Positions 4,536 through 32,077 of a stretch of DNA of 64,000 nucleotides are shown piece after piece; within the stretch, counting starts at the first letter, position 1; the number at the start of each line of letters is the position of its first letter. A program made the position numbers and the translations under genes. Source of the stretch: Gammaproteobacteria bacterium (lineage in GTDB: Bacteria > Pseudomonadota > Gammaproteobacteria > UBA12402); contig JASFHH010000004.1 of assembly GCA_050123335.1 (NCBI GenBank), positions 3,561 through 67,560 on the forward strand, read 5' to 3'. The notes under the pieces are model-generated. The model saw nothing but the letters and a program-made list of their open reading frames with translations. It was not told where the DNA came from and made no database searches.

Positions 4536-4633
4536 TTGAAAAGGTGCAAAAAACAGATCAAAATACTGCTGCTTAGAGCGATTTTGATAGAAAATCGCAA
4601 AAAAACTGAAAAAACTAACATCTTTCTCAAAAC

Positions 4634-4666
4634 CTTAAGCTTGCGTTAAGAATCGATGACTATAAT
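4634..4666 (+). promoter_or_regulatory. PmrA-type box plus -10 element
   Basis: CTTAAG-CTTGC-GTTAAG-N10-TATAAT. Confidence 0.75.
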
Positions 4667-4746
4667 TGAAACGAAACAATGACATTTGACTCTTAAATGG
4701 GAAATGTTGATTTATATTATTAAGTGAAATTGTAGAGGTAAATTTT

Positions 4747-8719: not shown

Positions 8720-8746
8720 TTGATTTGTCAGTTAAGGCTTTGTAAA

Positions 8747-10180: not shown

Positions 10181-10240
10181 GACAAGCTTAGGACAAACTT
10201 AGGACAAGCTTAGGACAAACTTAGGACAAGCTTAGGACAA
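10172..10240 (+). repeat. 11-bp tandem repeat CAARCTTAGGA x6
   Basis: Six units beginning at 10172; the first contains the stop codon of the AlbA_2 gene. Confidence 0.95.
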
Positions 10241-10263
10241 AATGTCTTTATAGGATTACTTGA

Positions 10264-11523: not shown

Positions 11524-11544
11524 GTTGTTTCTCCCAATAAATTA

Positions 11545-11734
11545 AAAATAACGTTTTACGGTTAGAGTTATTTTCCTGTTCTAGAGTTGTAAAACTGTAA
11601 GGAACGATAGCCTGCTAGAACAGGTTTCTAAGGAGAATAATGAGAGAATTCACTGATAAAGATGCATAGCAAACAAGCTCGGCAACAGAACTTGCCACGT
11701 TATGATTTAATTTTTGTTTGCTAAAACTGTTCAC
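11545..11734 (-). promoter_or_regulatory. putative Ile/Leu/Val leader peptide and attenuator
   Basis: GTG 11734 to TAG 11615 gives 39 aa ending ...SLSVNSLIILLRNLF*. CCTGTTCTAG/CTAGAACAGG stem overlaps the stop. Confidence 0.55.
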
Positions 11735-11868
11735 AAAAATACCCTTAAAAATATGGTATTTTGCAAGTATAGAACATAAAATTTAGAGAAGCAAATTTCT
11801 CGTGTTAAATTTAGCTTTATAATGACATCAATTTATTGTAGGGTATCGCTTTAGGAGGAGGTAAGGCA

Positions 11869-12288
11869 ATGAAAACCTACCGCAAAGAGCTTTGGTTTAA
11901 AACTAAACAAAAAATGGAGTTCATCAACATTACACCACAAATTGAGCAATGTTTGAACGAAAGTGGGATTAACGAAGGCCTGATCCTAGTAAATCCAATG
12001 CATATTACCGCCTCCGTGTTTATTAATGACGATGAACACGGCCTGCATCACGATTATATGCAGTTTTTGGAAAAATTAGCGCCATATAAGCCAATCAATC
12101 AATATCGCCACAATGATACTGGCGAAGATAATGCGCATGCTCACATCAAACGTCAATTAATGGGTAGAGAAGTGGTGGTAGCTATAACTAGCGGTCAGCT
12201 CGATTTTGGTACATGGGAACAGATTTTTTATGGTGAATTTGATGGTCAACGCAAGAAGCGTGTGCTGGTAAAAATCATTGGAGAATAA
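11869..12288 (+). CDS. yjbQ: YjbQ family (secondary thiamine-phosphate synthase)
   Basis: [37 protein letters not shown]. Confidence 0.9.
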
Positions 12289-12289
12289 A

Positions 12290-12376
12290 TTGCGTCATCC
12301 CGCGGCTTGACCGCGGGATCCAGAAATAAACATGATTCGAAGCTGGATCCCGCGGTCAAGCCGCGGGATGACGCAA
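12290..12376. repeat. REP/RPE-like doublet palindrome
   Basis: TTGCGTCATCCCGCGGCTTGACCGCGGGATCCAG, spacer, then its perfect reverse complement. Confidence 0.92.
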
Positions 12377-12388
12377 GGAGAGAAAACA

Positions 12389-13165
12389 ATGGGTTATGGT
12401 ACCAAATTTCTAGTTAGCTTAATTATTTTGTGCATAGCATTAATTTTTGGGTTATTTCCAATTTTAATTCGTGTAAACGGTTTAACTAAAAAAATATTAT
12501 CCTATGGTGAATCTTTTGCTGGCGGAATTTTTTTGGGAGCAGGTCTAATTCATTTACTGCCTGATGCTCAGAATGGATTGCATGCAGTTTTCAAAAGTAC
12601 TTATCCATTAGCATTTGTACTTTGTGCTTTTACTATTTTAGCGTTGCGTATGATTGAAGAGGGCACCATTAAATTATTAGTTTGCCATAACGAAGCATGC
12701 AAGCATCCGCACTTACAACCATGGTTGGCATATTTGTTAGCAATTCTATTATCAATTCACTCGGTTATCGCAGGCATTGCGTTAGGTGTCGAAACTGCAT
12801 TATCTACTTTTATTATCATTTTTATTGCAATAATTGCACATAAAGGTTCAGCAGCGTTTGCGCTGGGGGTTAGCATGCGCAAACAAGGATTAACTAAAAA
12901 TATTATGCTTCAGTTGATGTTATTATTTTCTTTAATGACACCAATTGGAATTATTTTCGGGTCTTTTTTCGCACATTGTTTAGCTGCAAATTCTGGCCAA
13001 TTTATTTCAGGAATTTTTAATGCAATTGCTGCCGGAACATTTATTTATATTGCTTTTCATATTGTTGATACTAAAGAGACTGAAGAATGCGTGCCGGTTT
13101 TACTACGACTTGCATATTTTGCGTTAGGATTAATGGTAATGACTGCGATAGCTTTGTATATGTAA
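12389..13165 (+). CDS. ZIP family metal (Zn) transporter
   Basis: AGGIFLGAGLIHLLP, LSIHSVIAGIALG, AIIAHKGSAAFALG. Start ATG 12389 after GGAG. Confidence 0.9.
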   Translation: MGYGTKFLVSLIILCIALIFGLFPILIRVNGLTKKILSYGESFAGGIFLGAGLIHLLPDAQNGLHAVFKSTYPLAFVLCAFTILALRMIEEGTIKLLVCHNEACKHPHLQPWLAYLLAILLSIHSVIAGIALGVETALSTFIIIFIAIIAHKGSAAFALGVSMRKQGLTKNIMLQLMLLFSLMTPIGIIFGSFFAHCLAANSGQFISGIFNAIAAGTFIYIAFHIVDTKETEECVPVLLRLAYFALGLMVMTAIALYM

Positions 13166-13183
13166 TCATCCAGGAGAAATAAA

Positions 13184-14482
13184 ATGAAAAACTTTTTACA
13201 ACGTTATTTTAAACTAAAAGAAAATAATACTTCGATTCGTGTGGAATTGATTGCTGCTTTAACTACTTTTGTTACTATGGTATACATTATTTTTGTTAAC
13301 CCAGAAATTTTGTCACAAACCGGAATGGATACCAGTTCTGTTTTTGTTGCAACTTGCTTAGTCGCTGCCACGGGAAGTTTTTTAGTTGGAATTTTAGCAA
13401 ATTATCCAATAGCGTTAGCGCCAGGAATGGGGCTTAATGCTTATTTTGTATATATTATCGCACGGCATGCAGGATTTAATTGGCAATCAGCGCTTGGCGC
13501 AATGTTGATTACTGGAATTTTATTTATTTTGTTAGTGATATTTAGGTTGCATCGCAAAATTATTGCCGCAATTCCACATACTTTAATTCTTGGTATTATT
13601 ATCGGTATGGGCTTGCTGATTGCTTTAGTTGGCTTGCAAAATATGCAATTAATTATGCATCACCCGCATGAATGGTTTCATTTTGGCTCGCCGCAATTAT
13701 GGCCAGTGCTATTATTTTTATTTGGCTTAGTTGTGATTGTGGTATTACATCATTTTAAAATATTAGGTGGAATTTTAATTAGCATTTTAACCGTAACTGC
13801 GCTGAGTTTATTATTTGGTATCAGCAAATTTCATGGTATAATTTCATTACCACCAAGTATCAAGCCAACCTTATTTTCTTTCAATTTGCATCAATTATTT
13901 AATTTAACTGGTTTAGGAATAATTTGTGCTTTCTTTATTGCAGGTTTATTCGACTTTTCTGGTGTAACTATGGGGATTTTAAAACAAACCAAAATCCCTA
14001 AACAGTATGATTACCAACCAAGATTTGCTAAAGCATTATTATCCGACGGCATTGCAACTTTATTGTGTGGCTGTTTTGGTAGTTCTGGAACCACAGCGTA
14101 TCTGGAAAACTCTGCTGGTATTCATGCTGGTGGACGTACTGGTTTAACCGCAGTAATTATTGCAATTTTATTTTTATTGGTGTTGTTTTTTGCGCCGCTA
14201 ACCAAAACCATTCCTGTGTGTGCTACAGCCGCACCATTGATTTTTATTGGTTATCATATGGCAAAACATGTTCTTGAGATTAATTGGTCGGATTTAACTG
14301 ACTTCATTCCAACATTGGTCATTGCAGCAATTATACCATATGCTGGTTCTGTTGCTGATGGAGCAGGAGCTGGTTTTATTATGTATATAATTTTAAAGCT
14401 AATTATGCGAAAAACTGTAGATATAAATCCTACATTGATTATATTTGGCTTAATTTTTGTAATTTATTTTTTGGGGACTTAA
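13184..14482 (+). CDS. NCS2/AzgA nucleobase permease
   Basis: ELIAALTTFVTMVYIIFVNP, APGMGLNAYF, ENSAGIHAGGRTGLTA. Confidence 0.92.
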   Translation: MKNFLQRYFKLKENNTSIRVELIAALTTFVTMVYIIFVNPEILSQTGMDTSSVFVATCLVAATGSFLVGILANYPIALAPGMGLNAYFVYIIARHAGFNWQSALGAMLITGILFILLVIFRLHRKIIAAIPHTLILGIIIGMGLLIALVGLQNMQLIMHHPHEWFHFGSPQLWPVLLFLFGLVVIVVLHHFKILGGILISILTVTALSLLFGISKFHGIISLPPSIKPTLFSFNLHQLFNLTGLGIICAFFIAGLFDFSGVTMGILKQTKIPKQYDYQPRFAKALLSDGIATLLCGCFGSSGTTAYLENSAGIHAGGRTGLTAVIIAILFLLVLFFAPLTKTIPVCATAAPLIFIGYHMAKHVLEINWSDLTDFIPTLVIAAIIPYAGSVADGAGAGFIMYIILKLIMRKTVDINPTLIIFGLIFVIYFLGT

Positions 14483-20353: not shown

Positions 20354-20590
20354 AATTTGGATATTCTAAATTGAACCGGTTTATGATGTTTAACACGATT
20401 TTTGCCCGGTAAACTATAAGCATTAATCTAAATAATAAATATAGTGATGGCAATTTTTTTTAGAAATGCTATCCTTAACGTTGCATGATTTCTAAGCCAT
20501 TCGTTTTGATCACTTCGAAAGTTAGTTTTTCAAAAATCAGAAAGCCTAAGTTATTAAGCAGTATTTTATTTTTAAAAAAGAGAGATATTT

Positions 20591-20863
20591 ATGAAAAAAT
20601 TATATGTTGGTAATTTACCTTATTCAGTTACAGAAGAAAGTCTTGAATCGTTATTTTCACAATTTGGACAGGTTGAAAGTGTTGTCATTATCAAAGAAAG
20701 AGAAACAGGCCGCACAAAGGGGTTCGGCTTTGTGGAATTTAAAAAACAAGCCGATGCTGAATCTGCCTTAGAATTAAATGGGAAAGATTTTGAAGGTCGT
20801 CTATTAAAAGTTAATATGGCTAAACCAAAAGAATCTAGTGCTGGAAGAGGGCGTCGTTGGTAA
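20591..20863 (+). CDS. RRM-domain RNA-binding protein
   Basis: RNP2 LYVGNL and RNP1 KGFGFVEF. Confidence 0.93.
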   Translation: MKKLYVGNLPYSVTEESLESLFSQFGQVESVVIIKERETGRTKGFGFVEFKKQADAESALELNGKDFEGRLLKVNMAKPKESSAGRGRRW

Positions 20864-20961
20864 CAAGGAAGATGGATGGGATTGGGAAAAGATGAAGATT
20901 GTAGGTTGAACCAACATATAGAGCGGTTTTGCCCTTGAATTCAGGGCCACTTAACCCATAT

Positions 20962-20990
20962 TATCTCCGATAAGTTTTCTTATCTACTAC
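20962..20990. other. dif-like tyrosine-recombinase site 1
   Basis: ATCTCCGATAA-GTTTTC-TTATCTACTAC (11-6-11). 13-bp arm 20962-20974 is inverted at 27822-27834. Confidence 0.65.
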
Positions 20991-21299
20991 AAATATTTAT
21001 ATCGTAATTATAGTAATAAAAGTTGTTGATTTTTATTTTTTAGTTACTTAGAATACGCATTATCTTAATAATTTTTATTATAGTAATCTTAGTACTTAAA
21101 GTATAAATATATTAAGAAATGTGTTTATTGGCTGTTTAAAAAAATAATAATTTTTGATGAGATACGGTAATGTGCTGATGATTAATCAGTGGCTTAAAAA
21201 GTGTTAAGAAGTCAAGGCTCCCCGAGTGGAACTAATGTTAGAGTATTGACATAACGAAAATAGCACTCGGAAGCTTTGGATAAATGGGATCCATTATAG

Positions 21300-22406
21300 A
21301 TGAAAGCGCAAAAAATAAAGCTAAATGACAATACTCAACCTTTTTGGATTGTGGTTGGAGACGATTATTTGCCCATTAAGTCAATCTACCAATATCTATT
21401 TTTTTTACGCAGCATCGATAAATCACCTAACACTATTAGAACTTATGCGCACCATTTAAAAATTTTTTGGGAATATCTTGCAATCAATCAATTAGAGTGG
21501 AACAAAATAAATATCGAAAAATTAGCTCGTTTTGTTGCCACACTTAATGGTTTGATTGATGGCAAAATTACCAATTTAAGCATCCCTAAAGGAAAACGCT
21601 CCGCTCGAACCATTAATCAAATAATTGTTGCTGTCGCTGGATTTTATCAATACCACCATAGATTGGGACAAGCACCTAATATGCCATTATATGATTGGAA
21701 AAGGCCATTTATAACAGGAAAATCTTTTAAACCATTTTTACATCACATTAACAAATCGAAAAAACAACGTAAAAGTTTTATTAAACTTAGAGAAGAAAAA
21801 AAATTAGCTCAAGTCGTTGAACCTGAAATCATAAAACAAATGATTGCTAATTGTAAACGCATCAGAGATAAATTTCTTATTTGCCTTTTGTATGAAACCG
21901 GTTGCCGTATTGGACAAGCGCTTGGATTACATCACGAAGACATAGAAACTTTTAACAACATTATCATGATTCGTCCGCGAGATAATAATTTTAATAATGC
22001 TAGAGCGAAAACTCGACAAATGAATAAAATAAATGTTAGTAAAAATTTAATGAACTTATATTATGAATATTATATGAAAGAATATGGTGATATTAAAAGC
22101 GATTATGTGTTTATAAATTTATGGCAAGGGAAAATTGGTAATCCTATGACTTATAATGCTGTCATTACACTATTTAATCGTCTAAGCAAAAAAGTTGGTG
22201 TTCATGTAACACCTCATATGTTGCGTCATACTCATGCAACTGAGTTAATCAAAGCAAAGTGGGGAATGGCACATGTTCAAAAACGCCTTGGACATCAAAA
22301 TATTCAAACTACAATTAACACATATACTCATATTACAAATGATGATCTAAAAGAACAATTTCAAGATTATTTGCAAAGCAGGGGTGATGATTTATGCCAA
22401 AATTAA
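21300..22406 (+). CDS. Tn554-family TnpA-like tyrosine recombinase
   Basis: SPNTIRTYAHHL, ETGCRIGQALGL, HMLRHTHAT, LGHQNIQTTINTY. Confidence 0.88.
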   Translation: MKAQKIKLNDNTQPFWIVVGDDYLPIKSIYQYLFFLRSIDKSPNTIRTYAHHLKIFWEYLAINQLEWNKINIEKLARFVATLNGLIDGKITNLSIPKGKRSARTINQIIVAVAGFYQYHHRLGQAPNMPLYDWKRPFITGKSFKPFLHHINKSKKQRKSFIKLREEKKLAQVVEPEIIKQMIANCKRIRDKFLICLLYETGCRIGQALGLHHEDIETFNNIIMIRPRDNNFNNARAKTRQMNKINVSKNLMNLYYEYYMKEYGDIKSDYVFINLWQGKIGNPMTYNAVITLFNRLSKKVGVHVTPHMLRHTHATELIKAKWGMAHVQKRLGHQNIQTTINTYTHITNDDLKEQFQDYLQSRGDDLCQN

Positions 22407-23884
22407 ATATTTTGCCTCAAACAAATAAAAATCTTATTGATAACAACCCAATTTGGTATAAAGATGATATTTGGTCTCTTGAAAATTTAGGCATAAATGG
22501 TAACAAATCAGATAAATACAATACGATTAGTTTTAAAAAAATCCAACAACCATGGTTAAAACACCTTCTTAAAAAACACATTCTCTTTAAAGGAATTAGT
22601 AGAGGCTGTCATTCTATAACTAAAATGGTCGCATCTATTATTTATTTCTCTGAATATCTTTCTGCATTACCAGAAAAACAACAAATATATTCTGAAACGG
22701 AAATTTCTCGAACTTTAATCGAAGGGTATTTGAGATTTTTAGGAAGCAGCGACAATTCTTATAATACCAAAAACCAAAAACTCAATGCGCTTAAGCGTTT
22801 TTTTGAAACTTGTATTGATCAAAAATGGGTTCCTTTTAATGGAAAATTAATCTATCCCGAAGATATTCCAAAACCAGCGAATAAACTACCACGATTTATA
22901 CCAGAATCAGTTATGGAGCAATTAAATGCGAAATTAAACAAAATGAATCCTTATGTAAAACGCATGCTTATAACACTTCAAGAAACAGGAGTAAGAATTG
23001 ACGAGCTATTATCATTAAATTTTGATTGTATTTATCAAGATCGAGAAGGTGATTATTTTTTAAAGTATTTTCAATTTAAAATGAATAAGGAACATGAGAT
23101 ACCGATATCGCATGACTTAGCTTCAATTGTAAGAGAGCAACAACAAACTGTTCGTGATGATTGGGGTGACCACAAATTATTATTTCCTACACCACAATAT
23201 ATTTCTTTAAATAACTCAAATAAGCGTCGAGCTAAGAATAGGGGGAAAAAGTGGTCAAGACGTGTTTTATCACAATATGTAAATGATTTTGCACGAGCTG
23301 AAAATATACTTGGTCCTGATGGAAAACCATGGCAATTTAAGTTCCATGATTTTCGTCATACATTAGCTACAAGAATGATTAACAGTAATATTAAGCAACA
23401 TTTTATACAACATTTTTTAGGTCATGAAAGCCCAGAAATGACATCACGTTATGCTCATGTACATAATGAAACTCTAAAAAAAGAATTTGCTACATTTTAT
23501 AATCAAAATTTAGTTAGTATTTCCGGTGATATTAGCACCCCAGAAAATGTAATTGATGATATTGCACAAGGCACAAGCCCAAAAGAAATTGATGAGCTTT
23601 GGCTAAAACGAAATATAATGGCGCAAGCTTTACCTAACGGCATGTGTTCTTTACCAGCAATTTCTAATAAATGCCCACATGCTAATTCTTGCTTAACATG
23701 TGCAAATTTTCGTACAGATAAACGATTCTTGAAAATTCACAAAGAACAATTGGAAAAAACGCAAAAAATTATTAATACGGCGCAAAAAAACGGATGGGAA
23801 CGACAATACGAAATGAATTGCACCGTAAAGAATAGTTTAGAAAAGATTATAACTACTTTAGAGGAACAATCTAATGACACATAA
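22394..23884 (+). CDS. Tn554-family TnpB-like tyrosine recombinase
   Basis: ETGVRIDE, HDFRHTLAT, LGHESPEMTSRYAH. C-terminal ALPNGMC..P...CPHANSCLTC. Confidence 0.88.
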   Translation: MPKLNILPQTNKNLIDNNPIWYKDDIWSLENLGINGNKSDKYNTISFKKIQQPWLKHLLKKHILFKGISRGCHSITKMVASIIYFSEYLSALPEKQQIYSETEISRTLIEGYLRFLGSSDNSYNTKNQKLNALKRFFETCIDQKWVPFNGKLIYPEDIPKPANKLPRFIPESVMEQLNAKLNKMNPYVKRMLITLQETGVRIDELLSLNFDCIYQDREGDYFLKYFQFKMNKEHEIPISHDLASIVREQQQTVRDDWGDHKLLFPTPQYISLNNSNKRRAKNRGKKWSRRVLSQYVNDFARAENILGPDGKPWQFKFHDFRHTLATRMINSNIKQHFIQHFLGHESPEMTSRYAHVHNETLKKEFATFYNQNLVSISGDISTPENVIDDIAQGTSPKEIDELWLKRNIMAQALPNGMCSLPAISNKCPHANSCLTCANFRTDKRFLKIHKEQLEKTQKIINTAQKNGWERQYEMNCTVKNSLEKIITTLEEQSNDT

Positions 23885-24293
23885 ACGCAATACAGATGGC
23901 ATGGTTCAAGCAGCAAAACAACGGCGCTTAGATACTATTAGACGTGTAGAAAAGGCCATAGAGAGCTTATTACGCGATAATAAGGCCATTAATTTCAATG
24001 TAGTTGCAAAATTAGCTAACGTTGGTAAACCATGGTTATATAAAGAGGAAAAAGTAAGGCAGCGTATCGAAAATTTGCGCTCACAAACACAGTTATGTAA
24101 AAATAATTCACCAAATGATTCTCAGAATATAAGTAATAAATCCAAAGGTAATATTATCGCTATGTTAAAAGATCGTATACGTACGTTAGAAGATGAAAAC
24201 AAGCAACTTAAAGAGCAAAGGGAGGTATTATATGGCAAATTGTGCATGTCAGAAGACATGGGGTGTGAAATACATACATTGGATGTCCGATAA
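23874..24293 (+). CDS. Tn554-family TnpC-like (DUF6262) protein
   Basis: INFNVVAKLANVGKPWLY followed by a coiled coil ending LYG. Confidence 0.82.
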   Translation: MTHKRNTDGMVQAAKQRRLDTIRRVEKAIESLLRDNKAINFNVVAKLANVGKPWLYKEEKVRQRIENLRSQTQLCKNNSPNDSQNISNKSKGNIIAMLKDRIRTLEDENKQLKEQREVLYGKLCMSEDMGCEIHTLDVR

Positions 24294-24310
24294 CGGTTAT
24301 TACCAGACAT
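24283..24310. other. dif-like tyrosine-recombinase site 2, directly upstream of recombinase gene
   Basis: ATGTCCGATAA-CGGTTA-TTACCAGACAT. Arms are 9/11 inverted-complementary; the site ends 34 bp before ATG 24345. Confidence 0.7.
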
Positions 24311-24344
24311 TGAATATAGCCCATAAATCTGTTAGGATTCAATA

Positions 24345-25547
24345 ATGACGTATGAAATTGCTACTCCTGCTGCCATTATAGATAACCTTGAACATCTCAA
24401 GGAACAAACCCTATTTTCTCATCCTAATTACAATAAATTAGTATTTACACAGCAAGATTTTAATCTTGTTAAGCAATTTTTATTAAATTATGTGGGCAGC
24501 AAAGCGACTTATAACACCTATAGGCGCGAAATTGAGCGTTATTTACAATGGCTATGGCTTGTGCAAAATCGCTCAATACTTAAAGTAAAACGTAAAGATG
24601 TTGAGATATATCTTGGATTTTGCGCTAATCCTCCAAAAAATTGGATTACGAACAATCATTTTCCTCGATTTATCTTAAAGGATGGCATAAGACAACCAAA
24701 TCCAGTTTGGCGGCCATTTGTGTTAAAAAACGATAAAAAACGCTATTTAATGTCGCAAGCTGGTTGGAAATCATTATTTGCTGTCTTAGGCAGTTTTCAC
24801 CAATTTTTAATTGAAGAAGAACACGCAGAAATTAACCCAATTGCGCAAATTCGACAAAAATCCAGATTTATTCGTAAAGAACAATCAAGACAACAAGTAC
24901 GTCGATTAACAGAACTACAATGGAATTATGTGATAGAAACTGCTGAAATAATGGCCAATCAAGATCATCAATACGAACGTACTTTATTTATCGTATCTTG
25001 TTTATATGGTATGTATTTAAGAATCTCAGAGCTAACGGCAACGGATCGCTGGATACCTCAAATGAATAACTTTTATCAAGATAATGAAGGCGATTGGTGG
25101 TTTAAAACTGTTGGAAAAGGCAATAAAGAACGAATTATATCTGTTAGCGACGCTATGTTAGAAGCGTTAAAACGTTATCGCAAAAATCGGGGATTACCTG
25201 CCCTACCTTCCCTTAACGATATATCTCCTTTAGTTGCTAAAAGTCATGGCGAAGGTGCAATAACATCAACACGTCATATTCGCCGCATTGTGCAACAATG
25301 TTTTGACCAAGCAATTCAAAGAATGATAAAAGATAATTTTGTTGATGAAGCAGAACAACTGAAAGCAGCAACTGTGCATTGGTTGCGGCATACGGGAATC
25401 TCAGATGATGTAAAAATACGTCCTCGCGAACACGTGCGCGATGATGCTGGCCATGGCTCTGGTGCAATTACTGACAGATATATTGACATTGAACTAAGAC
25501 GACGTCATGCTACTGCTAAAAAGAAAACTATTAAACCGGATGATTAA
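24345..25547 (+). CDS. intact tyrosine recombinase, candidate single-subunit Xer
   Basis: Catalytic set YLRISEL, GKGNKER, HWLRH, DAGH, TDRY all present. Not XerC/XerD-like in overall sequence. Confidence 0.85.
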   Translation: MTYEIATPAAIIDNLEHLKEQTLFSHPNYNKLVFTQQDFNLVKQFLLNYVGSKATYNTYRREIERYLQWLWLVQNRSILKVKRKDVEIYLGFCANPPKNWITNNHFPRFILKDGIRQPNPVWRPFVLKNDKKRYLMSQAGWKSLFAVLGSFHQFLIEEEHAEINPIAQIRQKSRFIRKEQSRQQVRRLTELQWNYVIETAEIMANQDHQYERTLFIVSCLYGMYLRISELTATDRWIPQMNNFYQDNEGDWWFKTVGKGNKERIISVSDAMLEALKRYRKNRGLPALPSLNDISPLVAKSHGEGAITSTRHIRRIVQQCFDQAIQRMIKDNFVDEAEQLKAATVHWLRHTGISDDVKIRPREHVRDDAGHGSGAITDRYIDIELRRRHATAKKKTIKPDD

Positions 25548-25566
25548 AAACTTAGAGGAAAAATAA

Positions 25567-25992
25567 ATGTTAGCTAAAACTGTTAAGTTCATTTTTTGCG
25601 CCACACTACTATTTTGTTCTGTAGGTTTTGCTTCTGGCACAAAAACTAAATATTTTATTACGGGTGAATATCTTTTACCTAAGTGTCATGCGGCAATAAG
25701 ACTTTTAAATAAAGACAACATACAATCTGGTGATGGTGTAAATGCTACTGTTTGTAGTACTTTTGTCATGACATCCATGGATGCATATAATCAATTTTTG
25801 AGTGATTCTGCAAAAAATAATACTGATTATATTAAAAAAGCCAATAGATTACCGAGTAACTTATTTGTTCTTATTAGAATGTTTACAAAATACCTTGATG
25901 AGCATCCAGAACAATTGCAATATTCTGCATATCAAACTTTTTTTGTGTTTTGCACTTCGCTGGAAATGCATGCTACGAAAAAAAATAATTAA
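25567..25992 (+). CDS. exported Rap1a/Tai-like immunity-fold protein
   Basis: Signal peptide; TGEYLLPKC, C..FV...MD, FTKYLDEHPEQLQYSA. Confidence 0.65.
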   Translation: MLAKTVKFIFCATLLFCSVGFASGTKTKYFITGEYLLPKCHAAIRLLNKDNIQSGDGVNATVCSTFVMTSMDAYNQFLSDSAKNNTDYIKKANRLPSNLFVLIRMFTKYLDEHPEQLQYSAYQTFFVFCTSLEMHATKKNN

Positions 25993-26016
25993 CACATAAT
26001 AACAAGAGGAAGTGTT

Positions 26017-27729
26017 ATGAAAAAAAGTGGTTACTCATCATCAGAATCAAATATTCCTTGGAATACAATCAAAGGGCAAGAGCTTGAAAAACTAGTATAT
26101 GATATTTTTTCTTCAAGAGGTGCAAAAGAGTTAGTTTGGCGAAAAGGAAGTATTGGCAAAAGTGCTAGCGACGGAGGGCGAGATCTTGAATGCACATTTC
26201 ACCGCCCTTCTCCCTTTGGAGAATTAGAATCGGAAAAATGGTGGGTGCAAGTAAAAGGAAGAAAAGATACTATTAAAACTGATGAGGTTAAAAAAATAAT
26301 AAATCATATTGTAATTGCATATCAGGAAGTAGATGTAATTGTAATAGCAACCAATTCAATTTTCACAAATGCGACAAGAGATTGGATTGACAAGGTTCAA
26401 AAAACCCATAAAAGACCAAAAATTAAAATGTGGGATCAAAATACGCTCGATAAATTAATTATTAAGTATTGTCCTGCTATAATTATGCAATATGATGCAA
26501 ATTTACAAATAAAAAATGAAAGTAAACAAAATACAACTGTGAAAAAAAGAACACCTGTTGCAATTTTCGATACCATAAAATATATTAGAAAACAAAACTT
26601 ATTTCTACATTCAAATTATAACAGATTATCTTTTGTCAAACAGGATTTTGCGTACGCGAAGCAATTTTTATTAAATTATACAAGAAGAGAGGCAACTTAT
26701 AACACTTATAGGCGCGAAATCGAGCGTTATTTGCAATGGTTGTGGTTAAATCATAAATCTATATTGCAAGTAAAACATCAAGACATTGAGTTATATCTTG
26801 CATTTTGCAGTGATCCTCCAAAAAATTGGATAGCAGAAAAACATGCCCCCAGATTTATTTTAAAAAATGGCTTACGACAACCAAATCCAACTTGGCGACC
26901 TTTTGACCTAAATAAAAACAAAAAATCATATTCTATGTCGCAAGCTGGTTGGGAATCGTTATTTGCTGTTTTAGGTAGCTTCCATAAGTTTTTGATTAAA
27001 AAAAAACATACCGAAATTGACCCAATTATACAAATTGATAGATCAAGGTTTATTTGTGAAAATCAATCTAAACAGCAAATACGTCGATTAACTAAATTGC
27101 AATGGAATTACGTTATCGAAACCGCTGAAATTATGGCAAATAGAAATCCGAAATATGAACGCACATTGTTTATTATGTCCTGCTTGTATGGAATGTATTT
27201 AAAAATTTCAGAACTAGCCGCGAATAATCGCTGGATTCCTAATATGAATCATTTTCACCAGGATAGTGATGGCAAGTGGTGGTTTAAAACAGGTAACAAC
27301 AAAAAGCGCAATATTCCAGTTAGTGATGGGATGTTGGAAGCCTTAAAACGTTATCGCAAAAGTCAGGGGTTGCTTGCTCTGCCCTCACCTAGCGACACCA
27401 CACCACTAATTGTGAAAGAACGTGGTGATGAGGCGATTGCTTCAACTCGTCAAATTCGCACCATTGTGAAAAAATGTTTTGATCAAGCGATTAAGCGTAT
27501 GAAGCAAGATGATTTTTCTGATGATGCAGAACAATTAGAAGTTGCTACCGTACATTGGTTACGTCATACTGGCATTTCAGATGATGTAAAAAATAGGCCA
27601 TGGGAACATGTACGAGATGATGCTGGACATAGCTCTGGAGCAATCACCGAAAAATATATTGACACTGAGAGCAAACAACGACATGCTACAGCTAAGCGGA
27701 AAACTATTAAATCGGAGGATATAAATTAG
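26017..27729 (+). CDS. Mrr-type restriction endonuclease fused to paralogue of 24345 recombinase
   Basis: N-terminal ELEKLV, DGGRD, WWVQVK, IATNS.FT. C-terminal ~390 aa highly similar to 24345..25547 but reads YLKISEL and lacks GKG. Confidence 0.85.
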   Translation: MKKSGYSSSESNIPWNTIKGQELEKLVYDIFSSRGAKELVWRKGSIGKSASDGGRDLECTFHRPSPFGELESEKWWVQVKGRKDTIKTDEVKKIINHIVIAYQEVDVIVIATNSIFTNATRDWIDKVQKTHKRPKIKMWDQNTLDKLIIKYCPAIIMQYDANLQIKNESKQNTTVKKRTPVAIFDTIKYIRKQNLFLHSNYNRLSFVKQDFAYAKQFLLNYTRREATYNTYRREIERYLQWLWLNHKSILQVKHQDIELYLAFCSDPPKNWIAEKHAPRFILKNGLRQPNPTWRPFDLNKNKKSYSMSQAGWESLFAVLGSFHKFLIKKKHTEIDPIIQIDRSRFICENQSKQQIRRLTKLQWNYVIETAEIMANRNPKYERTLFIMSCLYGMYLKISELAANNRWIPNMNHFHQDSDGKWWFKTGNNKKRNIPVSDGMLEALKRYRKSQGLLALPSPSDTTPLIVKERGDEAIASTRQIRTIVKKCFDQAIKRMKQDDFSDDAEQLEVATVHWLRHTGISDDVKNRPWEHVRDDAGHSSGAITEKYIDTESKQRHATAKRKTIKSEDIN

Positions 27730-27805
27730 TTACATTAAAAGCAAGATACATGGAATACTATAAATACTTGCTTGCTTATTATAACTGCTTGTTTTTAAAA
27801 AATTT

Positions 27806-27834
27806 GATGTGGTTTAATTTTCTTATCGGAGATA
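27806..27834. other. dif-like half site 3
   Basis: TTTTC-TTATCGGAGATA. Shares TTTTCTTATC (27818-27827) with 20975-20984. Confidence 0.6.
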
Positions 27835-27846
27835 GCGAGAGCCTCT

Positions 27847-28674
27847 CTAATCCAAGAAATTTAAAATACATTCCGTAATCTGTTCCCAAATCGTTTTGTT
27901 AAAAAACACATGTCCGACTTCTGGCAAAATGATTACATTAAATTTATTTTTTAAAGCTTTAATCTCATCAACTAGCGCCAATATATCTTCTTCTCCATGA
28001 ATTAATAATAAATTATCTGGTAATTCTTGCGATAAATCAGTTTTTGTCATTCCTGCCGCTATATGATTCCAGGCTGGATTAAAATCACCTTGATGGCGAT
28101 TATAAATACTTTGCGTGTAATTCTTTGCCATTTGTTCATCAATTGGGATATCTCCATGCAACAATTTCCAACTATTAAGCCACCCTGCCCAATCTTTTTT
28201 AAAATTGCCAGTTGGTTTATTCTTAAATAATTCTTGCATTGTTGCTTTATATTTTGGATGCTCAAGGATTTGTTCGCTAATGTTAATCGATATCGAAATC
28301 GCACTTAAAGTTCTATCTGGATGTTTTACTGTCAAATATTGCACGATAGCGCCACCCATAGAATGACCGATAAAATGAGCTTTTTGAATATTATAATCAT
28401 CTAAAATATTTAATGCATCTTCTGCAAGATCAGCAAGCGTGTATACAGGTTTATTAAGATCTTTAGTAACGGGAAAATGTGTAGAATAACCAATATCCCG
28501 ATGATCATAGCGAATAACAAAATATCCGGCATTAGCCAATTCTTTACAAAAAAAATCTGGCCAAAAAGTACTAGGTGCGTGTGCACCAGCAATTAGCAAA
28601 ATTGCATGATTGTTTTTGTTGCCGAAAGATTCTGTCCATATGTTTATACTATTTTTTACAACAATTTTTTCCAT
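27847..28674 (-). CDS. alpha/beta hydrolase
   Basis: RYDHRDIGYS, GHSMGG, HGEED, GH catalytic-triad motifs. Confidence 0.9.
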   Translation of the reverse strand: MEKIVVKNSINIWTESFGNKNNHAILLIAGAHAPSTFWPDFFCKELANAGYFVIRYDHRDIGYSTHFPVTKDLNKPVYTLADLAEDALNILDDYNIQKAHFIGHSMGGAIVQYLTVKHPDRTLSAISISINISEQILEHPKYKATMQELFKNKPTGNFKKDWAGWLNSWKLLHGDIPIDEQMAKNYTQSIYNRHQGDFNPAWNHIAAGMTKTDLSQELPDNLLLIHGEEDILALVDEIKALKNKFNVIILPEVGHVFFNKTIWEQITECILNFLD

Positions 28675-28990: not shown

Positions 28991-31900
28991 ATGCTTAATG
29001 GTAATTATAAGGTCTATTTAAAACTAAAAGAATGCATCAAAACTAATTATACAAATATTAGATCGTATAAAACATTACAACTAGTAGAAACGACCAAAAT
29101 TTTACAATTAACTAAACAGGCAATCGGGTTTGTGCGCAATTATGAGATAGAGTTTATTTGTAATAAAAAAATGATTATTACTTCGAAGATAAAACCTAAA
29201 ATTGTAATAAAAATAAACTCCAGAACACGCTCAACGATAATCAGCCTTCCCTTTAAGCAGCAATTGATTCACCTTAAACCTAAAATATTTATTTCAAATA
29301 CTGATTGTATGCTTATTGGATTTATATTGGAAAATGTTTATGCTAAGCATAATAAGAAAAACTGGAAGTTTGGTAAAGAAAAAAAAAGGCGATTGGTTAC
29401 GCACTTAATGTTTGTTTTATTTCCATGCCTCAATGCACTGTTGCACCAAGTTGCAGAATTCAAAAGCGTAGATGAAGCACTAAAGATCTACGATTTTATT
29501 ATAGAGAATATTGCAGCTAACTATATGAAAATTGGCGCTCTTGTAAAAAAAGGAATGCTGCAACAGTATGTTTTACGAAAAAATGATAAGGCAATTAAAT
29601 CTTATCAAGATGCATATAAGATTTGCAAAAAAATAAACTGCTATGATCTTATTTTTGTGCTAACATGCCTTTACCCTATATTTCATAACAGTAAAAATTT
29701 ACCACTAAAAATTTGGTTTCCTGAATCTTTGCATAAGATAATATGCAAAAAACTAAATAAGCATTTTGGCCCATATCTAAAGAGTCAAATAGCTTTATTG
29801 GTAACTGGGTTTACTAAGGAAGAGAACATTGAACTAAAAATTTTTATTGTCCGAATATATGAATGCTATATAAAGTATGCTATTTTAAATAAAATAAAGC
29901 TAAGCAATAAATTATTGCATAAATTTTACTTAACACAACATAGAACCCATGGATTAAGCTTGGAAGATCTATTTGATCTTGCGGTCTCAAAAAATAATTT
30001 TCTGATAGCTCTTGCTTTGTATGATGAAGAAAATAAACTAAATCCCGCTAATATAGATTTTTATATAAAATTTATTATCTTTACAATAGATCAAAACCAA
30101 ACAATTATAGCAAATAAATTGCTAAACAAGCTTAGTGAATATTCTAAAGCTGTAGAAAGCAGCAAATACGCAATTATTTTTTATCTACTAAATGGTAATG
30201 CTAAGCAAGCTAAAAAGTGTAAATTCGGTAATATAAGTAACCTTGAGTTAATCACAATAAATAATTATCTTGGTAAAAAGGTTGCAAAAAATCTTAAAAT
30301 AATTCTTAATAAGATTGAATCAAAAATAAATACTGTGTCAAAAAAGAATAAACACAACAAGCGCAATAAAAAAAGAAAAATTAAAAAGAAACGTAAGCAA
30401 CAAAAAAAACTATTTATGAAAGCTGATGAAAAACAACAAACTATGAAACCGAAAACCAAGATAGAAAAAAAACCCCCAACCCCTATTTACATACCAGGAA
30501 GCAAGATAAACCCTGAAATTATAGAAATTATAAAGGCTATACAAAATAAATGCCCTGTTATTATGATTATTGGTTCAGCCATGCTGCGTCATCTGTATAA
30601 TAAACCTCCCACTGATTACGACATGCTTGTTGGCTGTAATCTTGACGAGATAAAATTATTTATACCAAAAAAATATTCAGTCACTTTTATAGAGGGCGAA
30701 CATCCACACTTGGTTGTTAAATATGGTAAAAACAAAACCGTTGATATTAACACTTTGATTTATAAAACCATGGTTGTTATTTGTAAACGTATAGATTATC
30801 AAACCACGAAGAAATTATACCAAACTATTTTTCGTTTAGTAGATAGATTTATAGTCCTTATGTGTATAGATAATGGCAAGCTCACTATGATTGATATTAT
30901 ATGGTTTGATGATAGAACTAACAATATAAGATTTCAGCAGATAACAAAAAAACATAAGTCAAAATTGTTTAATAAACTTTGGAATTCGTACATTCAGCAA
31001 TTAAAAAAGCGCAAAAAAAATACCATATATAAGTTTTTTATCAAGAATCATATAATAACAGTACATATAGCAAAGCTGTTTGAGGTTACTGATATAGAGA
31101 TACCATTGAAGCGTTATTTACGTGGTGGTACTGCAACCATAACCTCAATTGGCTGGTCATATAATCAAAAAGAAAATGTATTTTATACAAAAGACGATTT
31201 TTTTGGTGGATTACTTCACTTAAAAAGTAAAAAAGTTGTATTGATTCATAATCCAACAACAACTTTCAACCAATCTCCAGAAAAGGCATATAGGATTATA
31301 TATTATGCAATTGCTTTTGGCTTTGAACTCAAAGAAAAAACACTTAAATCTCTACAAAAACGTAAAGATCTTCTATTTAAAAAACCTTATGCCCCACATC
31401 CAAATACTATTTATAAATATATTAAAAAATTGTTGTTAGAAGACGGGGCTGCCACCATTAAATATATTAACAGCAATAAATTGTGGCATTTGGTGCCACT
31501 ATTTAAACTGCCTAACAGCAAGTTTCCTACAGAAAGAGATATTATCTTCTATATTGAATGTTTTACAGAGCTCAGAAAGGCTGTTCGAAACATACAGCAA
31601 ATTAAAGAAGAAATCATCATCCCAGCAATTTTACTATATCCAAACATTCATGAAGCATTGAAAACTTTTACTATGATACTACAACAATCTCGATGCTGGC
31701 GTACATTTTATTCAGTAGTCCATAACCTTATTATAAACGAAGAATATTTTAAGCCATTTAAAGCAGCAGCAAATTTTTTTGCTGCGATTGATACCATTAG
31801 GCATGTTATAGTTTATAGGAATGCTTCCATTCCCAAAAAATCTGACATTTCTAAGAAATTAACTATTGAAACAAAACTTCTGCTAAAGGGTTTTGAAATT

Positions 31901-32077
31901 GCTTATGATAAAAAACCTAAGATACCTAAAACAGAAATAATAAAAAAACATGGGATATTTGCCCCAAAGAAACAAAAGATCCCAAACAAAAATCCTGATA
32001 ATATGAAATCAATACTGGAAAACGCATGGCGTGGTGAAAGTTATTATCAAAATTACTGGATGTGTAATCTCCTTTAG
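28991..32077 (+). CDS. large effector-like protein with divergent class II nucleotidyltransferase (PcnB/CCA-like) domain
   Basis: IIGSAMLRHLYNKPPTDYDMLV and DDFFGGLLHLKSKKVVLIHNPTTTFNQSPEKAYR..YAIAFGFEL. Polybasic tract. C-terminal CNLL. Confidence 0.7.
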   Translation: MLNGNYKVYLKLKECIKTNYTNIRSYKTLQLVETTKILQLTKQAIGFVRNYEIEFICNKKMIITSKIKPKIVIKINSRTRSTIISLPFKQQLIHLKPKIFISNTDCMLIGFILENVYAKHNKKNWKFGKEKKRRLVTHLMFVLFPCLNALLHQVAEFKSVDEALKIYDFIIENIAANYMKIGALVKKGMLQQYVLRKNDKAIKSYQDAYKICKKINCYDLIFVLTCLYPIFHNSKNLPLKIWFPESLHKIICKKLNKHFGPYLKSQIALLVTGFTKEENIELKIFIVRIYECYIKYAILNKIKLSNKLLHKFYLTQHRTHGLSLEDLFDLAVSKNNFLIALALYDEENKLNPANIDFYIKFIIFTIDQNQTIIANKLLNKLSEYSKAVESSKYAIIFYLLNGNAKQAKKCKFGNISNLELITINNYLGKKVAKNLKIILNKIESKINTVSKKNKHNKRNKKRKIKKKRKQQKKLFMKADEKQQTMKPKTKIEKKPPTPIYIPGSKINPEIIEIIKAIQNKCPVIMIIGSAMLRHLYNKPPTDYDMLVGCNLDEIKLFIPKKYSVTFIEGEHPHLVVKYGKNKTVDINTLIYKTMVVICKRIDYQTTKKLYQTIFRLVDRFIVLMCIDNGKLTMIDIIWFDDRTNNIRFQQITKKHKSKLFNKLWNSYIQQLKKRKKNTIYKFFIKNHIITVHIAKLFEVTDIEIPLKRYLRGGTATITSIGWSYNQKENVFYTKDDFFGGLLHLKSKKVVLIHNPTTTFNQSPEKAYRIIYYAIAFGFELKEKTLKSLQKRKDLLFKKPYAPHPNTIYKYIKKLLLEDGAATIKYINSNKLWHLVPLFKLPNSKFPTERDIIFYIECFTELRKAVRNIQQIKEEIIIPAILLYPNIHEALKTFTMILQQSRCWRTFYSVVHNLIINEEYFKPFKAAANFFAAIDTIRHVIVYRNASIPKKSDISKKLTIETKLLLKGFEIAYDKKPKIPKTEIIKKHGIFAPKKQKIPNKNPDNMKSILENAWRGESYYQNYWMCNLL

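What the first reader, a model, noticed from the sequence alone, without database searches (positions are those of the whole stretch)
26017..27729. Mrr-type nuclease fused to a catalytically altered copy of the neighbouring Xer-like recombinase
Seen: about 165 N-terminal aa have Mrr_cat PD-(D/E)xK motifs (E..V, DGGRD, VQVK). They are joined in frame to a near full-length paralogue of 24345. The first catalytic Arg reads Lys (YLKISEL vs YLRISEL) and the catalytic-Lys loop is altered (KTGNNKKR vs KTVGKGNKER), while HWLRH, DAGH and the Tyr remain. The ORF is intact despite many substitutions, suggesting selection. Inference: a disarmed recombinase may be reused as a dif-binding module that targets a nuclease to dif-like sites. 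This could defend against dif-hijacking mobile elements, act as an addiction module, or be a dominant-negative regulator. I do not know of this architecture being described.
Basis: partly seen in the sequence, partly recalled or inferred. Interest (0 to 1): 0.88.

Follow-up and report, generated by a model that had tools for sequence, protein, structure and literature searches.

The report
Nuclease fused to disarmed XerL recombinase
A mobile element that has split the chromosome's likely dimer-resolution site carries a one-of-a-kind gene joining an intact DNA-cutting domain to a catalytically crippled copy of the recombinase that normally acts at such sites, which looks like a natural site-directed nuclease.

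Summary
ORF 26017-27729 (570 aa) joins an Mrr-type PD-(D/E)xK domain (aa 1-165) through a low-confidence linker to a full-length tyrosine recombinase that is 68% identical to neighbour 24345-25547.

The recombinase is not XerC/D. It belongs to the XerL family, the single-recombinase Xer of Legionellales. The fused copy reads Lys for the first catalytic Arg and has lost the catalytic Lys. 117 of the 120 best relatives keep the full RKHRHY set. The only other deviant, P0002, is its sister. dN/dS against the neighbour is 0.16.

The nuclease domain keeps every family-invariant residue, resembles the MspJI, AspBHI and FokI cleavage modules, and is predicted to homodimerise. No second fusion was found in any search.

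New context: the gene is the last one of a 6.85-kb element inserted in the centre of a 30-bp perfect palindrome. A same-genus genome keeps this palindrome intact. In both genomes it lies at or near the GC-skew maximum, so it is probably dif.

Best reading (0.4): the dead XerL tethers a dimeric nuclease to XerL-type sites, for the element's maintenance or competition at dif. Binding and cleavage are untested, and the fusion is a singleton.

The parts
20962..20991 (.). Left junction (attL-like). It has the perfect 13-nt arm TATCTCCGATAAG, the spacer TTTT, and an element-side arm CTTATCTACTACA of which only the inner 6 nt match. It retains a small perfect palindrome GATAAG-TTTT-CTTATC.
21300..22406 (+). 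Tn554-TnpA-like tyrosine recombinase (368 aa)
   Evidence: Pfam Phage_integrase 122 bits. Relatives at 37-45% identity lie in trios in 4 other genomes.
22394..23884 (+). Tn554-TnpB-like tyrosine recombinase (496 aa)
   Evidence: Pfam Phage_integrase 97.9 bits
23874..24293 (+). Small third protein of the trio (139 aa, DUF6262)
   Evidence: Pfam DUF6262 56.3 bits, cut-off 29
24282..24311 (.). Possible third dif-like site, GATGTCCGATAAC-GGTT-ATTACCAGACATT, 34 nt upstream of the xerL paralogue
   Evidence: It scores 18/26 against the palindrome model, second best in the window. 26 of 200 Markov simulations of 64 kb reach 18, so it is not significant window-wide.
24345..25547 (+). Element-borne XerL paralogue (400 aa) with the complete RKHRHY catalytic set
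   Evidence: 55% identity over 99% of its length to C. burnetii pQpH1 CBUA0010
25567..25992 (+). Small protein (141 aa) with a hydrophobic N-terminus. Its Rap1a match is weak, below the Pfam cut-off.
   Evidence: no relative in any fetched locus
26017..26511 (+). Fusion protein, aa 1-165: Mrr-type PD-(D/E)xK nuclease domain (E24, D52, R55, D56, E58, Q78-x-K80)
26512..26550 (+). Fusion protein, aa 166-178: linker, modelled with low confidence
   Evidence: pLDDT under 50 for aa 153-166 and 168-173; homology limits
26551..27729 (+). Fusion protein, aa 179-570: disarmed XerL (K396 at the Arg-I position, catalytic Lys lost, H513, R516, H538 and Y547 kept)
27805..27834 (.). Right junction (attR-like): element-side arm TGATGTGGTTTAA, spacer TTTT, and the perfect 13-nt arm CTTATCGGAGATA
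   Evidence: homology with G001 resumes at the arm's outer end

Best explanation
The protein is a modular, site-directed endonuclease. Its C-terminal 390 residues are a XerL-family recombinase that can no longer catalyse strand exchange. This part still folds and, by inference, still binds XerL-type arms as a dimer on a palindromic site. It holds two copies of an intact, dimerising Mrr-type cleavage domain at that site, where they would make a double-strand break.

The gene is cargo of a 6.85-kb element (20975-27821) that inserted into the centre of the 30-bp palindrome TATCTCCGATAAG-TTTT-CTTATCGGAGATA. This palindrome is probably the XerL dif site. The carrier chromosome therefore has no intact copy. 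An intact site would reappear after precise excision, in element-free relatives, or on incoming DNA with a good dif mimic.

The likely role is therefore selfish. The protein would keep the element in place, or exclude or home against rivals at dif.

Shown: the architecture, the loss of catalytic residues, purifying selection, the intact nuclease motifs, the insertion into the palindrome, and the absence of an intact palindrome in this assembly. Inferred: that the palindrome is dif, that the dead XerL binds it, that the nuclease cuts, and the biological role.
For: Disarmed recombinase: 117 of the 120 best family members have RKHRHY. P0016 is truncated. Only this protein and P0002 deviate. 23 of 24 further XerL-family ORFs from the fetched loci have RKHRHY, the exception being this protein.

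Selection: the two deviants form a clade (support 100/99) with longer branches than their active sister clade. Against the neighbour, dN is 0.20, dS 1.28 and omega 0.16 over 396 codons. The XerL part is modelled at pLDDT 93-98 and matches XerD, Cre, XerA and XerH.

Nuclease: all residues that are invariant or at least 90% conserved across 62 family rows are kept. The model has pLDDT 88. Its best PDB matches are the cleavage domains of MspJI and AspBHI, with FokI and LlaBIII lower in the list. The homodimer model scores 0.50 against a best control of 0.00. That mark was reached by 20 of 30 proteins solved as pairs and 1 of 23 solved as single chains. Contacts agree at 81% or more and the partner's pLDDT is 76. 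The model supports binding but does not show it.

Context: the 13-nt arm occurs exactly twice in the 1.9-Mb assembly, inverted, at 20962 and 27822. The same-genus genome G001 has one intact palindrome whose two outer flanks match the window's outer flanks. The cumulative GC skew peaks at 27-28 kb in the window, and about 2.3 kb from the site in G001.

Family: the family is XerL (PMC9765430, abstract and sections 7 and 11). The genome has no XerD above the cut-off.
Against: The fusion is a singleton, so selection on the fusion as such cannot be measured.

The only other disarmed XerL, P0002, shows no sign of a nuclease domain in its visible N-terminus. 1429 of 2000 shuffles reach the observed alignment score. 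A dead XerL may therefore have a role without any nuclease.

The binding specificity of the dead XerL is unknown. It is 53% identical to the chromosomal copy on C25 and 68% to the element's own XerL.

H513, R516, H538 and Y547 are still conserved, which binding alone does not obviously require.

The left junction keeps one perfect arm and a 6+4+6 palindrome. Self-cutting is therefore not excluded, and no immunity factor is evident.

That the palindrome is dif rests on its position, its symmetry and its being single-copy. The published dif sequences are in figures and supplements I could not see. The exact motif is not conserved across the family: it was found in 2 of 14 genomes.
Confidence: 0.4

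Rival explanations
1. Non-catalytic architectural or dominant-negative partner. The dead XerL binds the element's junction arms, or forms mixed complexes with active XerL, and so makes integration one-way or blocks excision and rival integration. On this reading the nuclease domain is a late add-on of little consequence.
For: P0002 is a disarmed XerL with no demonstrable nuclease, so the disarmed state predates or is independent of the fusion. The element-side arms are poor mimics of the host arms, which would suit a dedicated binding subunit. In XerC/D systems, integration of dif-exploiting elements with a modified, stabilising junction site is described in PMC9765430 (discussion passages).
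Against: The nuclease domain keeps every conserved residue of its family at only 40-49% identity to its nearest relatives. A passenger domain would not be expected to do so. The linker and a start with a Shine-Dalgarno run point to a single translated product.
Confidence: 0.22
2. Strand-cutting helper of the integration reaction. In a synapse of active XerL with the dead XerL, one pair of strands is exchanged by the recombinase. The tethered nuclease then cuts the other pair or the Holliday junction, and so completes insertion at dif.
For: The gene lies in one same-strand cluster with an active XerL paralogue, with gaps of 19 and 24 nt. The two junctions share a 10-nt identity, GATAAGAAAA, that marks the crossover region. 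PD-(D/E)xK domains include junction resolvases (recalled, not tested).
Against: The best structural matches are restriction-type cleavage modules, not resolvases. Nothing shows which of the five recombinase-domain proteins carried out the insertion. The Tn554-like trio is an equally good candidate.
Confidence: 0.1
3. Evolutionary accident. A recent in-frame join of a defence-type nuclease gene fragment to a decaying recombinase paralogue, with no function of its own.
For: It is a singleton in every search. It lies in a mobile, rearranged region. No RNA data are available.
Against: The duplication is old (dS 1.28) yet omega is 0.16, and no stop or frameshift occurs in 570 codons. Loss of the catalytic Lys is shared with P0002, so the disarmed lineage has persisted. 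The nuclease motifs are intact. The XerL part is found with 0 differences over 204 nt in a run of another study (X3). Near-identical pieces of the element occur in a third study (X2).
Confidence: 0.15

Closest known systems
XerL (L. pneumophila Lpg1867; C. burnetii plasmid-borne XerL), the single-recombinase dif/Xer system of Legionellales (Nicholson et al., mBio 2022, PMC9765430)
   Same: Same protein family. The neighbour is 55% and the fused moiety 50% identical to pQpH1 CBUA0010 over nearly the full length. Size is about 400 aa, with the catalytic Tyr about 20 residues from the C-terminus. The target site is a ~30-bp palindrome near the terminus. The own genome has no XerC/D.
   Different: The fused copy lacks the first Arg and the catalytic Lys, and it carries an N-terminal nuclease. 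It and its active paralogue are cargo of an inserted element, while a third copy lies on contig C25. That CBUA0010 is the paper's XerL is inferred. It is the only family match on the plasmid. Its Tyr is at 396, against Y389 in the paper, an offset that a different start codon would explain.
Modular restriction endonucleases with a separate Mrr/FokI-type cleavage domain (MspJI, AspBHI, FokI, LlaBIII)
   Same: The nuclease domain's predicted fold matches their cleavage domains best. The D...(E/Q)xK motif is shared. The cleavage module is tethered to a separate DNA-recognition module. A dimer is predicted.
   Different: Here the recognition module is a dead tyrosine recombinase, not an SRA-like, winged-helix or methylase/helicase module. 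The nuclease is N-terminal. No modification dependence is implied.
IMEXs (integrative mobile elements exploiting Xer: LME-1, CTX phage, gonococcal genetic island)
   Same: The element is inserted in the centre of the putative dif. One junction arm is degenerate. The site lies at the terminus (PMC9765430, introduction and discussion passages).
   Different: IMEXs by definition borrow the host's Xer. This element encodes four proteins with recombinase domains of its own, one of them fused to a nuclease.
Homing endonucleases and restriction-type addiction modules (likeness of function only)
   Same: The logic would be the same. The element's insertion destroys the site that its nuclease recognises, so carriers are immune and empty sites are cut.
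   Different: There is no sequence or fold relation to the LAGLIDADG, HNH or GIY-YIG families. Cutting of the empty site is not shown.
Tn554-type trio (two tyrosine recombinases plus a small protein) and NCBIfam 'gamma-mobile-trio'
   Same: Genes 21300-24293 have this layout, with DUF6262 as the third protein. Trios 37-45% identical occur in 4 other genomes of the class.
   Different: Those four trios have no XerL or Mrr neighbour. The GmtY model scores 44 bits against a cut-off of 340. Tn554's own properties are recalled, not tested.
Engineered nucleases made of a catalytically dead DNA enzyme plus a cleavage domain (for example inactive I-SceI fused to PvuII, PMC3258161; dead pAgo or dead RusA fused to FokI)
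   Same: Same design principle.
   Different: Those are man-made. I saw only their titles and abstract starts in a search listing.

Membership tests
Mrr_cat / PD-(D/E)xK nuclease | Profile match above the curated cut-off | tested here: met
   PF04471 39.8 bits against 21, aa 17-148
Mrr_cat / PD-(D/E)xK nuclease | Catalytic Glu, Asp and (E/Q)xK residues present | tested here: met
   E24, D52/D56 and Q78-x-K80. These columns are E in 62/62 rows, D in 62/62 and 61/62, E47/Q10/D5, and K in 61/62.
Mrr_cat / PD-(D/E)xK nuclease | Restriction-endonuclease-like fold | tested here: met
   Model pLDDT 88.1. Foldseek gives MspJI at E 2.8e-5 and AspBHI at 7.4e-5.
Mrr_cat / PD-(D/E)xK nuclease | Mg-dependent DNA cleavage | not testable with these tools
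   needs biochemistry
Tyrosine recombinase (Phage_integrase) | Profile match and two-domain Cre/Xer fold | tested here: met
   PF00589 27.6 bits against 27.1. Foldseek gives XerD at 1.6e-5, also Cre, XerA and XerH.
Tyrosine recombinase (Phage_integrase) | Complete catalytic set R-K-H-R-H/W-Y | tested here: not met
   K at Arg-I and the catalytic Lys lost. H, R, H and Y are kept.
XerL family | Close full-length similarity to experimentally defined XerL | tested here: met
   50% identity for the fused part and 55% for the neighbour to C. burnetii pQpH1 CBUA0010. The link of that gene to the paper's XerL is inferred. Lpg1867 itself was not in any collection that I searched.
XerL family | Recombines two dif sites and resolves chromosome dimers | not testable with these tools
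   The missing catalytic residues argue against it for the fused copy.
XerC/XerD | Score above the NCBIfam equivalog cut-offs | tested here: not met
   40.4 bits against 329.6 (XerD) and 38.4 against 335.15 (XerC)
IMEX | Integrated at dif | tested here: inconclusive
   Insertion in the centre of a single-copy 30-bp palindrome at the GC-skew maximum. That the palindrome is dif is not proven.
IMEX | No recombinase of its own; relies on host Xer | tested here: not met
   Four proteins with recombinase domains lie inside the element.
PADLOC candidate defence system PDC-M58 | Match to component A and presence of the partner genes | tested here: inconclusive
   Component A matches at E 5e-10 over aa 13-165. 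No partner was found among the five neighbours scanned.

The most novel reading that the evidence does not exclude
A 'dif-homing' or dif-addiction system. A mobile element splits the chromosome's dimer-resolution site and carries a nuclease whose targeting module is a dead copy of the very recombinase that reads that site. Any chromosome or rival element with an unsplit site is then cut, while carriers are immune. This would be a natural counterpart of engineered dead-enzyme nuclease fusions, and a new way for selfish DNA to hold an essential site hostage.
Probability: 0.25. Interest if true: 0.9.

Novelty: new variant of a known kind. Interest (0 to 1): 0.72.

Why it matters
If the reading is right, it has four consequences.
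- It shows that a site-specific recombinase can be turned into a pure DNA-recognition module for a nuclease in nature.
- It adds a conflict layer (nuclease-based maintenance or exclusion) to the biology of elements that occupy dif.
- It gives a ready pair of protein and 30-bp site for testing the recently discovered XerL system outside pathogens.
- It offers a compact, naturally evolved scaffold for site-directed cleavage.

If it is only an accident, the locus still documents an insertion into a candidate XerL dif site with the empty site preserved in a sister genome.

Tried and rejected
P0002's contig. The metagenome scan with P0002 returned 12 loci, the best 56% identical, and not its own contig. 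I therefore could not see what lies upstream of the only other disarmed XerL. MAFFT had placed its 20-residue N-terminal extension against the nuclease's fourth strand. A local alignment with shuffles shows no similarity, with 1429 of 2000 shuffles as good, so I dropped that idea.

Other searches that gave nothing:
- The word-based search with aa 1-178 found only the query among 210 candidates. It is insensitive at 40-49% identity, and the HMMER search replaced it.
- The genome-contig scan with the TnpB-like protein found no relative. The genome search then found 4.
- No neighbour of XerL genes recurs across the 21 loci beyond pairs of near-syntenic loci (L028/L030, L018/L020) and scattered two- or three-locus families.
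- Apart from G016 (see Noticed in passing) no convincing dif-like palindrome lies next to the XerL genes; three other loci gave 10-of-11 hits that I did not follow up.
- I could not recognise the plasmid dif next to C. burnetii xerL by eye or with the repeat finder. The paper's dif sequences are in figures and supplements that are not held. The palindrome was therefore not compared with any published dif.
- The Atlas search with the C-terminal domain of the usual ~410-aa nuclease family gave no usable hit.

Reads. No RNA holder was listed. Cover of the fusion gene in X2 is sparse, and the X3 contig (26545-26748) stops short of the domain junction. Neither run tests the junction. The joint 20974 to 27818 in X1 has only 20 letters on its shorter side. 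I take it as a weak sign of an empty site in a more abundant relative.

Third site. The candidate at 24282 is not significant window-wide.

Rejected reading. The recombinase is not a true XerC/D.

Full report
1. The observation

ORF 26017-27729 (+) is intact and 570 aa long. The open frame begins only 8 codons upstream, and an AAGAGGAAG run lies 7 nt before the ATG.

Pfam finds Mrr_cat at aa 17-148 (39.8 bits, cut-off 21) and Phage_integrase at aa 362-551 (27.6 bits, cut-off 27.1). The neighbour 24345-25547 aligns to aa 179-568 with 268/394 identities (68%) and 4 gaps.

The first catalytic Arg (AGA, R226 in the neighbour) is AAA (K396) in the fusion. In the loop that carries the catalytic Lys, T-V-G-K-G-N-K-E-R has become T-G-N-N-K-K-R, through a 6-nt deletion and an AAA to AAC change. 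H513, R516, H538 and Y547 are kept. Which Lys of GKGNKER is catalytic is taken from E. coli XerD K172, which I recall and did not test.

2. What the recombinase is

It is not XerC or XerD. The NCBIfam equivalog models give 38-59 bits for the two copies against cut-offs of about 330. The whole assembly has no XerD above the cut-off, the best being 101.6 bits from a different recombinase.

The family is large and uniform. 2139 proteins reach E of 0.001 or better among 7799 candidates, and the best 120 are 366-438 aa long apart from the query itself.

Against PLSDB plasmids, the best hits of the neighbour are the Coxiella burnetii QpH1-type plasmids (55% identity, 99% coverage, one place per record), followed by Legionella plasmids at 48-52%. 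On pQpH1 the gene is CBUA0010.

Nicholson et al. (mBio 2022, PMC9765430) is the key paper. I read its abstract, sections 5, 7 and 11, and passages found by term search, but not its figures or supplements. It shows three things:
- Legionellales lack XerC/D and use a single recombinase, XerL (Lpg1867, catalytic Y387).
- XerL acts at a ~29-30-bp site with perfectly symmetric arms close to the GC-skew maximum.
- The C. burnetii XerL (Y389) is plasmid-borne, with a dif-like site next to it.

CBUA0010 has its Tyr at 396 in the annotated 417-aa frame. I take it to be that XerL, with the 7-residue offset explained by a different start. This is an inference.

The genome holds three copies: the neighbour, the fused one, and a third on contig C25 (55% to the fusion protein; 53% to its XerL part).

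3. The fused copy is disarmed, and this state is old and maintained

Among the 120 best relatives, 117 have R-K-H-R-H-Y. P0016 is truncated. Only the window's protein (K, no Lys) and P0002 (R to G, K to N, first H to N) deviate. Among 24 XerL-family rows in a second alignment (the 21 context loci, G007's copy, the neighbour and the fused copy), 23 have the full set. The exception is the fused copy.

A maximum-likelihood tree of 32 rows (P0016 left out) puts P0001 and P0002 together (100/99). They are sister (99/95) to the clade of P0003, P0004 and the neighbour. From the shared node, the path lengths are about 0.42-0.47 for the disarmed pair and about 0.14-0.25 for the active clade.

The two share the altered loop (G-N...K-K-R), a one-residue deletion and several C-terminal changes. 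They differ at the Arg position (K against G). This fits loss of the Lys first, then independent loss of the Arg. That order is an inference.

Nei-Gojobori estimates against the neighbour over 396 codons are dN 0.20, dS 1.28 and omega 0.16. Windows of 65 codons range from 0.04 to 0.26, lowest in the catalytic domain. dS is near saturation, and the value averages both lineages.

The XerL part is modelled with pLDDT 93-98 for aa 180-510. It matches XerD, Cre, XerA and XerH.

Arg-to-Lys mutants of tyrosine recombinases are commonly used as DNA-binding but inactive forms. This is recalled. The one trace of it in my calls is a PDB title: Tn1549 integrase R225K in complex with DNA.

4. The nuclease domain is intact and of the 'cleavage module' kind

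A full HMMER search with aa 1-178 finds 495 proteins at E of 0.001 or better, and 47 at 1e-30 or better. The best are 40-49% identical. Of the 150 listed, 71 are 380-480 aa long. 76 share one C-terminal domain of about 250 aa without a Pfam name. None matches a XerL profile.

The window's protein therefore looks like a member of this family whose usual C-terminal domain has been replaced by XerL.

Every column that is invariant or at least 90% conserved in 62 rows is kept: E24, W41, D52, R55, D56, E58, W75, W76, K80, R82, T112, N113, N118, D122, W123 and W139. Q78 is a minority state of the family.

The domain model has pLDDT 88.1. Its best PDB matches are the nuclease domains of MspJI (E 2.8e-5) and AspBHI. 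Rpb5, Cap4, FokI and LlaBIII come further down the list.

A two-copy model scores 0.50 against a best control of 0.00. That mark was reached by 20 of 30 proteins solved as pairs and 1 of 23 solved as single chains. Contacts agree at 81% or more and the pLDDT is 76. This supports a homodimer but does not show one.

The family is rare. It was found in 2 of 400 other genomes of the class. In the one case with context, it follows a 941-aa ABC/SMC-like ATPase that hits PADLOC Ppl, GajA, AriA and LmuB. The window's domain itself hits PADLOC PDC-M58A (E 5e-10). A defence-type origin is likely but rests on that single example.

5. The fusion is unique so far

- Only the query carries both Pfam domains among the best 120. 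A second fusion would have outscored every listed hit.
- In 60 related genomes, 26 have the recombinase, but no match outside G000 starts before residue 165.
- 0 of 150 nuclease relatives have the recombinase.

Literature searches for natural recombinase-nuclease fusions gave only engineered analogues. I saw listings only.

6. Where the gene sits

The 13-nt word CTTATCGGAGATA occurs exactly twice in the 1.9-Mb assembly, in inverted orientation, at 20962-20974 and 27822-27834.

The same-genus genome G001 has one uninterrupted palindrome, TATCTCCGATAAG-AAAA-CTTATCGGAGATA (found in 1 of 61 genomes, and not in G000). It lies on the contig that also carries the orthologues of the window's flanking genes: the hydrolase at 90.5% and the RNA-binding protein at 85.7%.

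A three-way alignment shows the split. G001's left flank and left arm continue into the window's right junction. G001's right arm and right flank continue into the window's left junction. GATAAGAAAA is present at both junctions.

Window 20975-27821 is therefore an insertion into the centre of the palindrome. Its element-side arms are poor mimics of the host arms, matching 8/13 and 4/13 by my count.

Several features point to the replication terminus and to dif:
- The cumulative GC skew of the window peaks at 27000-27999.
- By my count from the ORF list (nested ORFs left out), genes switch from mainly + (20 of 23 ORFs of 100 aa or more) to mainly - (22 of 27) at that point.
- In G001 the skew maximum is about 2.3 kb from the palindrome, and its XerL gene is 4.8 kb away.
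- Size, symmetry, single copy and position all fit the dif of a XerL system as the paper describes it.

The identification remains an inference. The exact motif is not conserved across the family (2 of 14 genomes, one of them with a 3-nt spacer).

Contents of the element:
- a Tn554-like trio (21300-24293);
- an active XerL paralogue (24345);
- a small protein with a hydrophobic N-terminus (25567);
- the fusion (26017).

All are on one strand, with gaps of 51, 19 and 24 nt. Trios 37-45% identical occur in 4 of 399 other scored genomes. None of these has a XerL or Mrr neighbour. The element is therefore composite.

A possible third dif-like site lies between the two modules at 24282-24311, 34 nt before the xerL paralogue. 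This recalls the plasmid arrangement in C. burnetii. Its score of 18/26 is reached in 13% of simulated 64-kb sequences.

Read evidence:
- In run X1, probably the source, Logan contigs reproduce 20955-25430 and 25505-27847 with 0 differences at depth about 8. The flanks also carry a diverged relative at depth about 84-92. One contig joins 20974 to 27818, with a shorter side of only 20 letters.
- Runs of two other studies hold near-identical short pieces. X2 covers parts of the trio, the XerL paralogue and the small gene. X3 covers 26545-26748 with 0 differences.
- None of these spans the domain junction.

7. How it most likely works

A dead XerL that still folds and is conserved is most simply a DNA-binding module for XerL-type arms. 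XerL sites are palindromes bound by two protomers. The nuclease domain belongs to a class that is non-specific on its own and acts as a dimer when tethered (FokI and MspJI; recalled), and a homodimer is predicted here. Two protomers on an intact site would then place a nuclease dimer for a double-strand break.

The element's insertion has split the only such site in this genome. Carriers would therefore be spared. A restored site after excision, an element-free relative's chromosome, or incoming DNA with a good mimic would be cut.

I give this 0.4. The rivals are:
- an architectural or dominant-negative dead XerL with an incidental nuclease (0.22), favoured by P0002;
- a strand-cutting helper in integration (0.10);
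- a functionless accident (0.15).

About 0.13 remains for something I have not thought of.

8. Comparison and novelty

The parts are known: XerL, Mrr-type cleavage modules, and elements at dif. The principle of 'recognition module plus cleavage module' is also known. New here are:
- a recombinase disarmed and used in that role;
- its place on an element that occupies the recombinase's own site;
- an element at dif that brings its own XerL paralogues.

I therefore file it as a new variant of a known kind. It has a bolder reading (dif homing or addiction) that the data do not exclude.

9. Limits

- There is one genome, from a metagenome assembly of 97 contigs at 91.7% completeness.
- There are no expression data and no biochemistry.
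- P0002's gene context was unobtainable.
- The published dif sequences were not visible to me.

Noticed in passing
L041 (G001:C45) 3689-3718 and 3776-3805: The intact palindrome in G001 is itself nested inside a perfect ~30-nt inverted repeat (GTAGTTGCACTTATGAGTTGAATTCAAGGT and its complement). A remnant (CCTTGAATTCA) is visible beside the window's left junction.
   Followed up: no
L038 (G016:C3) about 7612-7640: A 29-bp palindrome with perfect 11-nt arms (CGTCAAAATGC-AAAAATC-GCATTTTGACG) lies 109 nt upstream of that genome's XerL gene. It is a candidate dif or plasmid-type site.
   Followed up: no
L063 (G081:C132) 1354-5459, minus strand: A 426-aa member of the nuclease family overlaps by one base the end of a 941-aa ABC/SMC-like ATPase. 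The ATPase hits PADLOC Ppl (E 1.3e-39), GajA, AriA and LmuB. This looks like a two-gene defence system.
   Followed up: partly
window 28991-32077 (+): A 1028-aa, Lys-rich protein has no Pfam family. Its aa 732-936 give only weak matches to poly(A) polymerase PcnB (30 bits against a cut-off of 306).
   Followed up: no
window 20591-20863 (+): A 90-aa RRM-type RNA-binding protein scores 97.5 bits on NF058537, against a cut-off of 100. A second copy (82% identical) lies on contig C60.
   Followed up: no
L041 (G001:C45) 7654-14198: In G001 the XerL gene overlaps the end of a 298-aa ORF that I read, by eye and without a family search, as RdgC-like. It is followed by a 356-aa ORF that looks DUF1016/YhcG-like and a 1019-aa ORF that looks like a Tn3-family transposase, both also read by eye. 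The 414-aa gene between the hydrolase and the palindrome has no counterpart in the window.
   Followed up: no
window 20500-20832 and 27849-28470, run X1: The sample holds a 6-11% diverged relative at about ten times the depth of the window's strain. The flank of the window's own strain has depth 12.7, against 8.1-8.7 inside the element. This could mean that part of the strain lacks the element. It was not tested.
   Followed up: no
window 25567-25992 (+): A 141-aa protein with a hydrophobic N-terminus lies between the two XerL genes. It has a sub-threshold Rap1a (type VI immunity) match of 21.8 bits against a cut-off of 27.7. It has no relative in any fetched locus or elsewhere in the genome.
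   Followed up: partly
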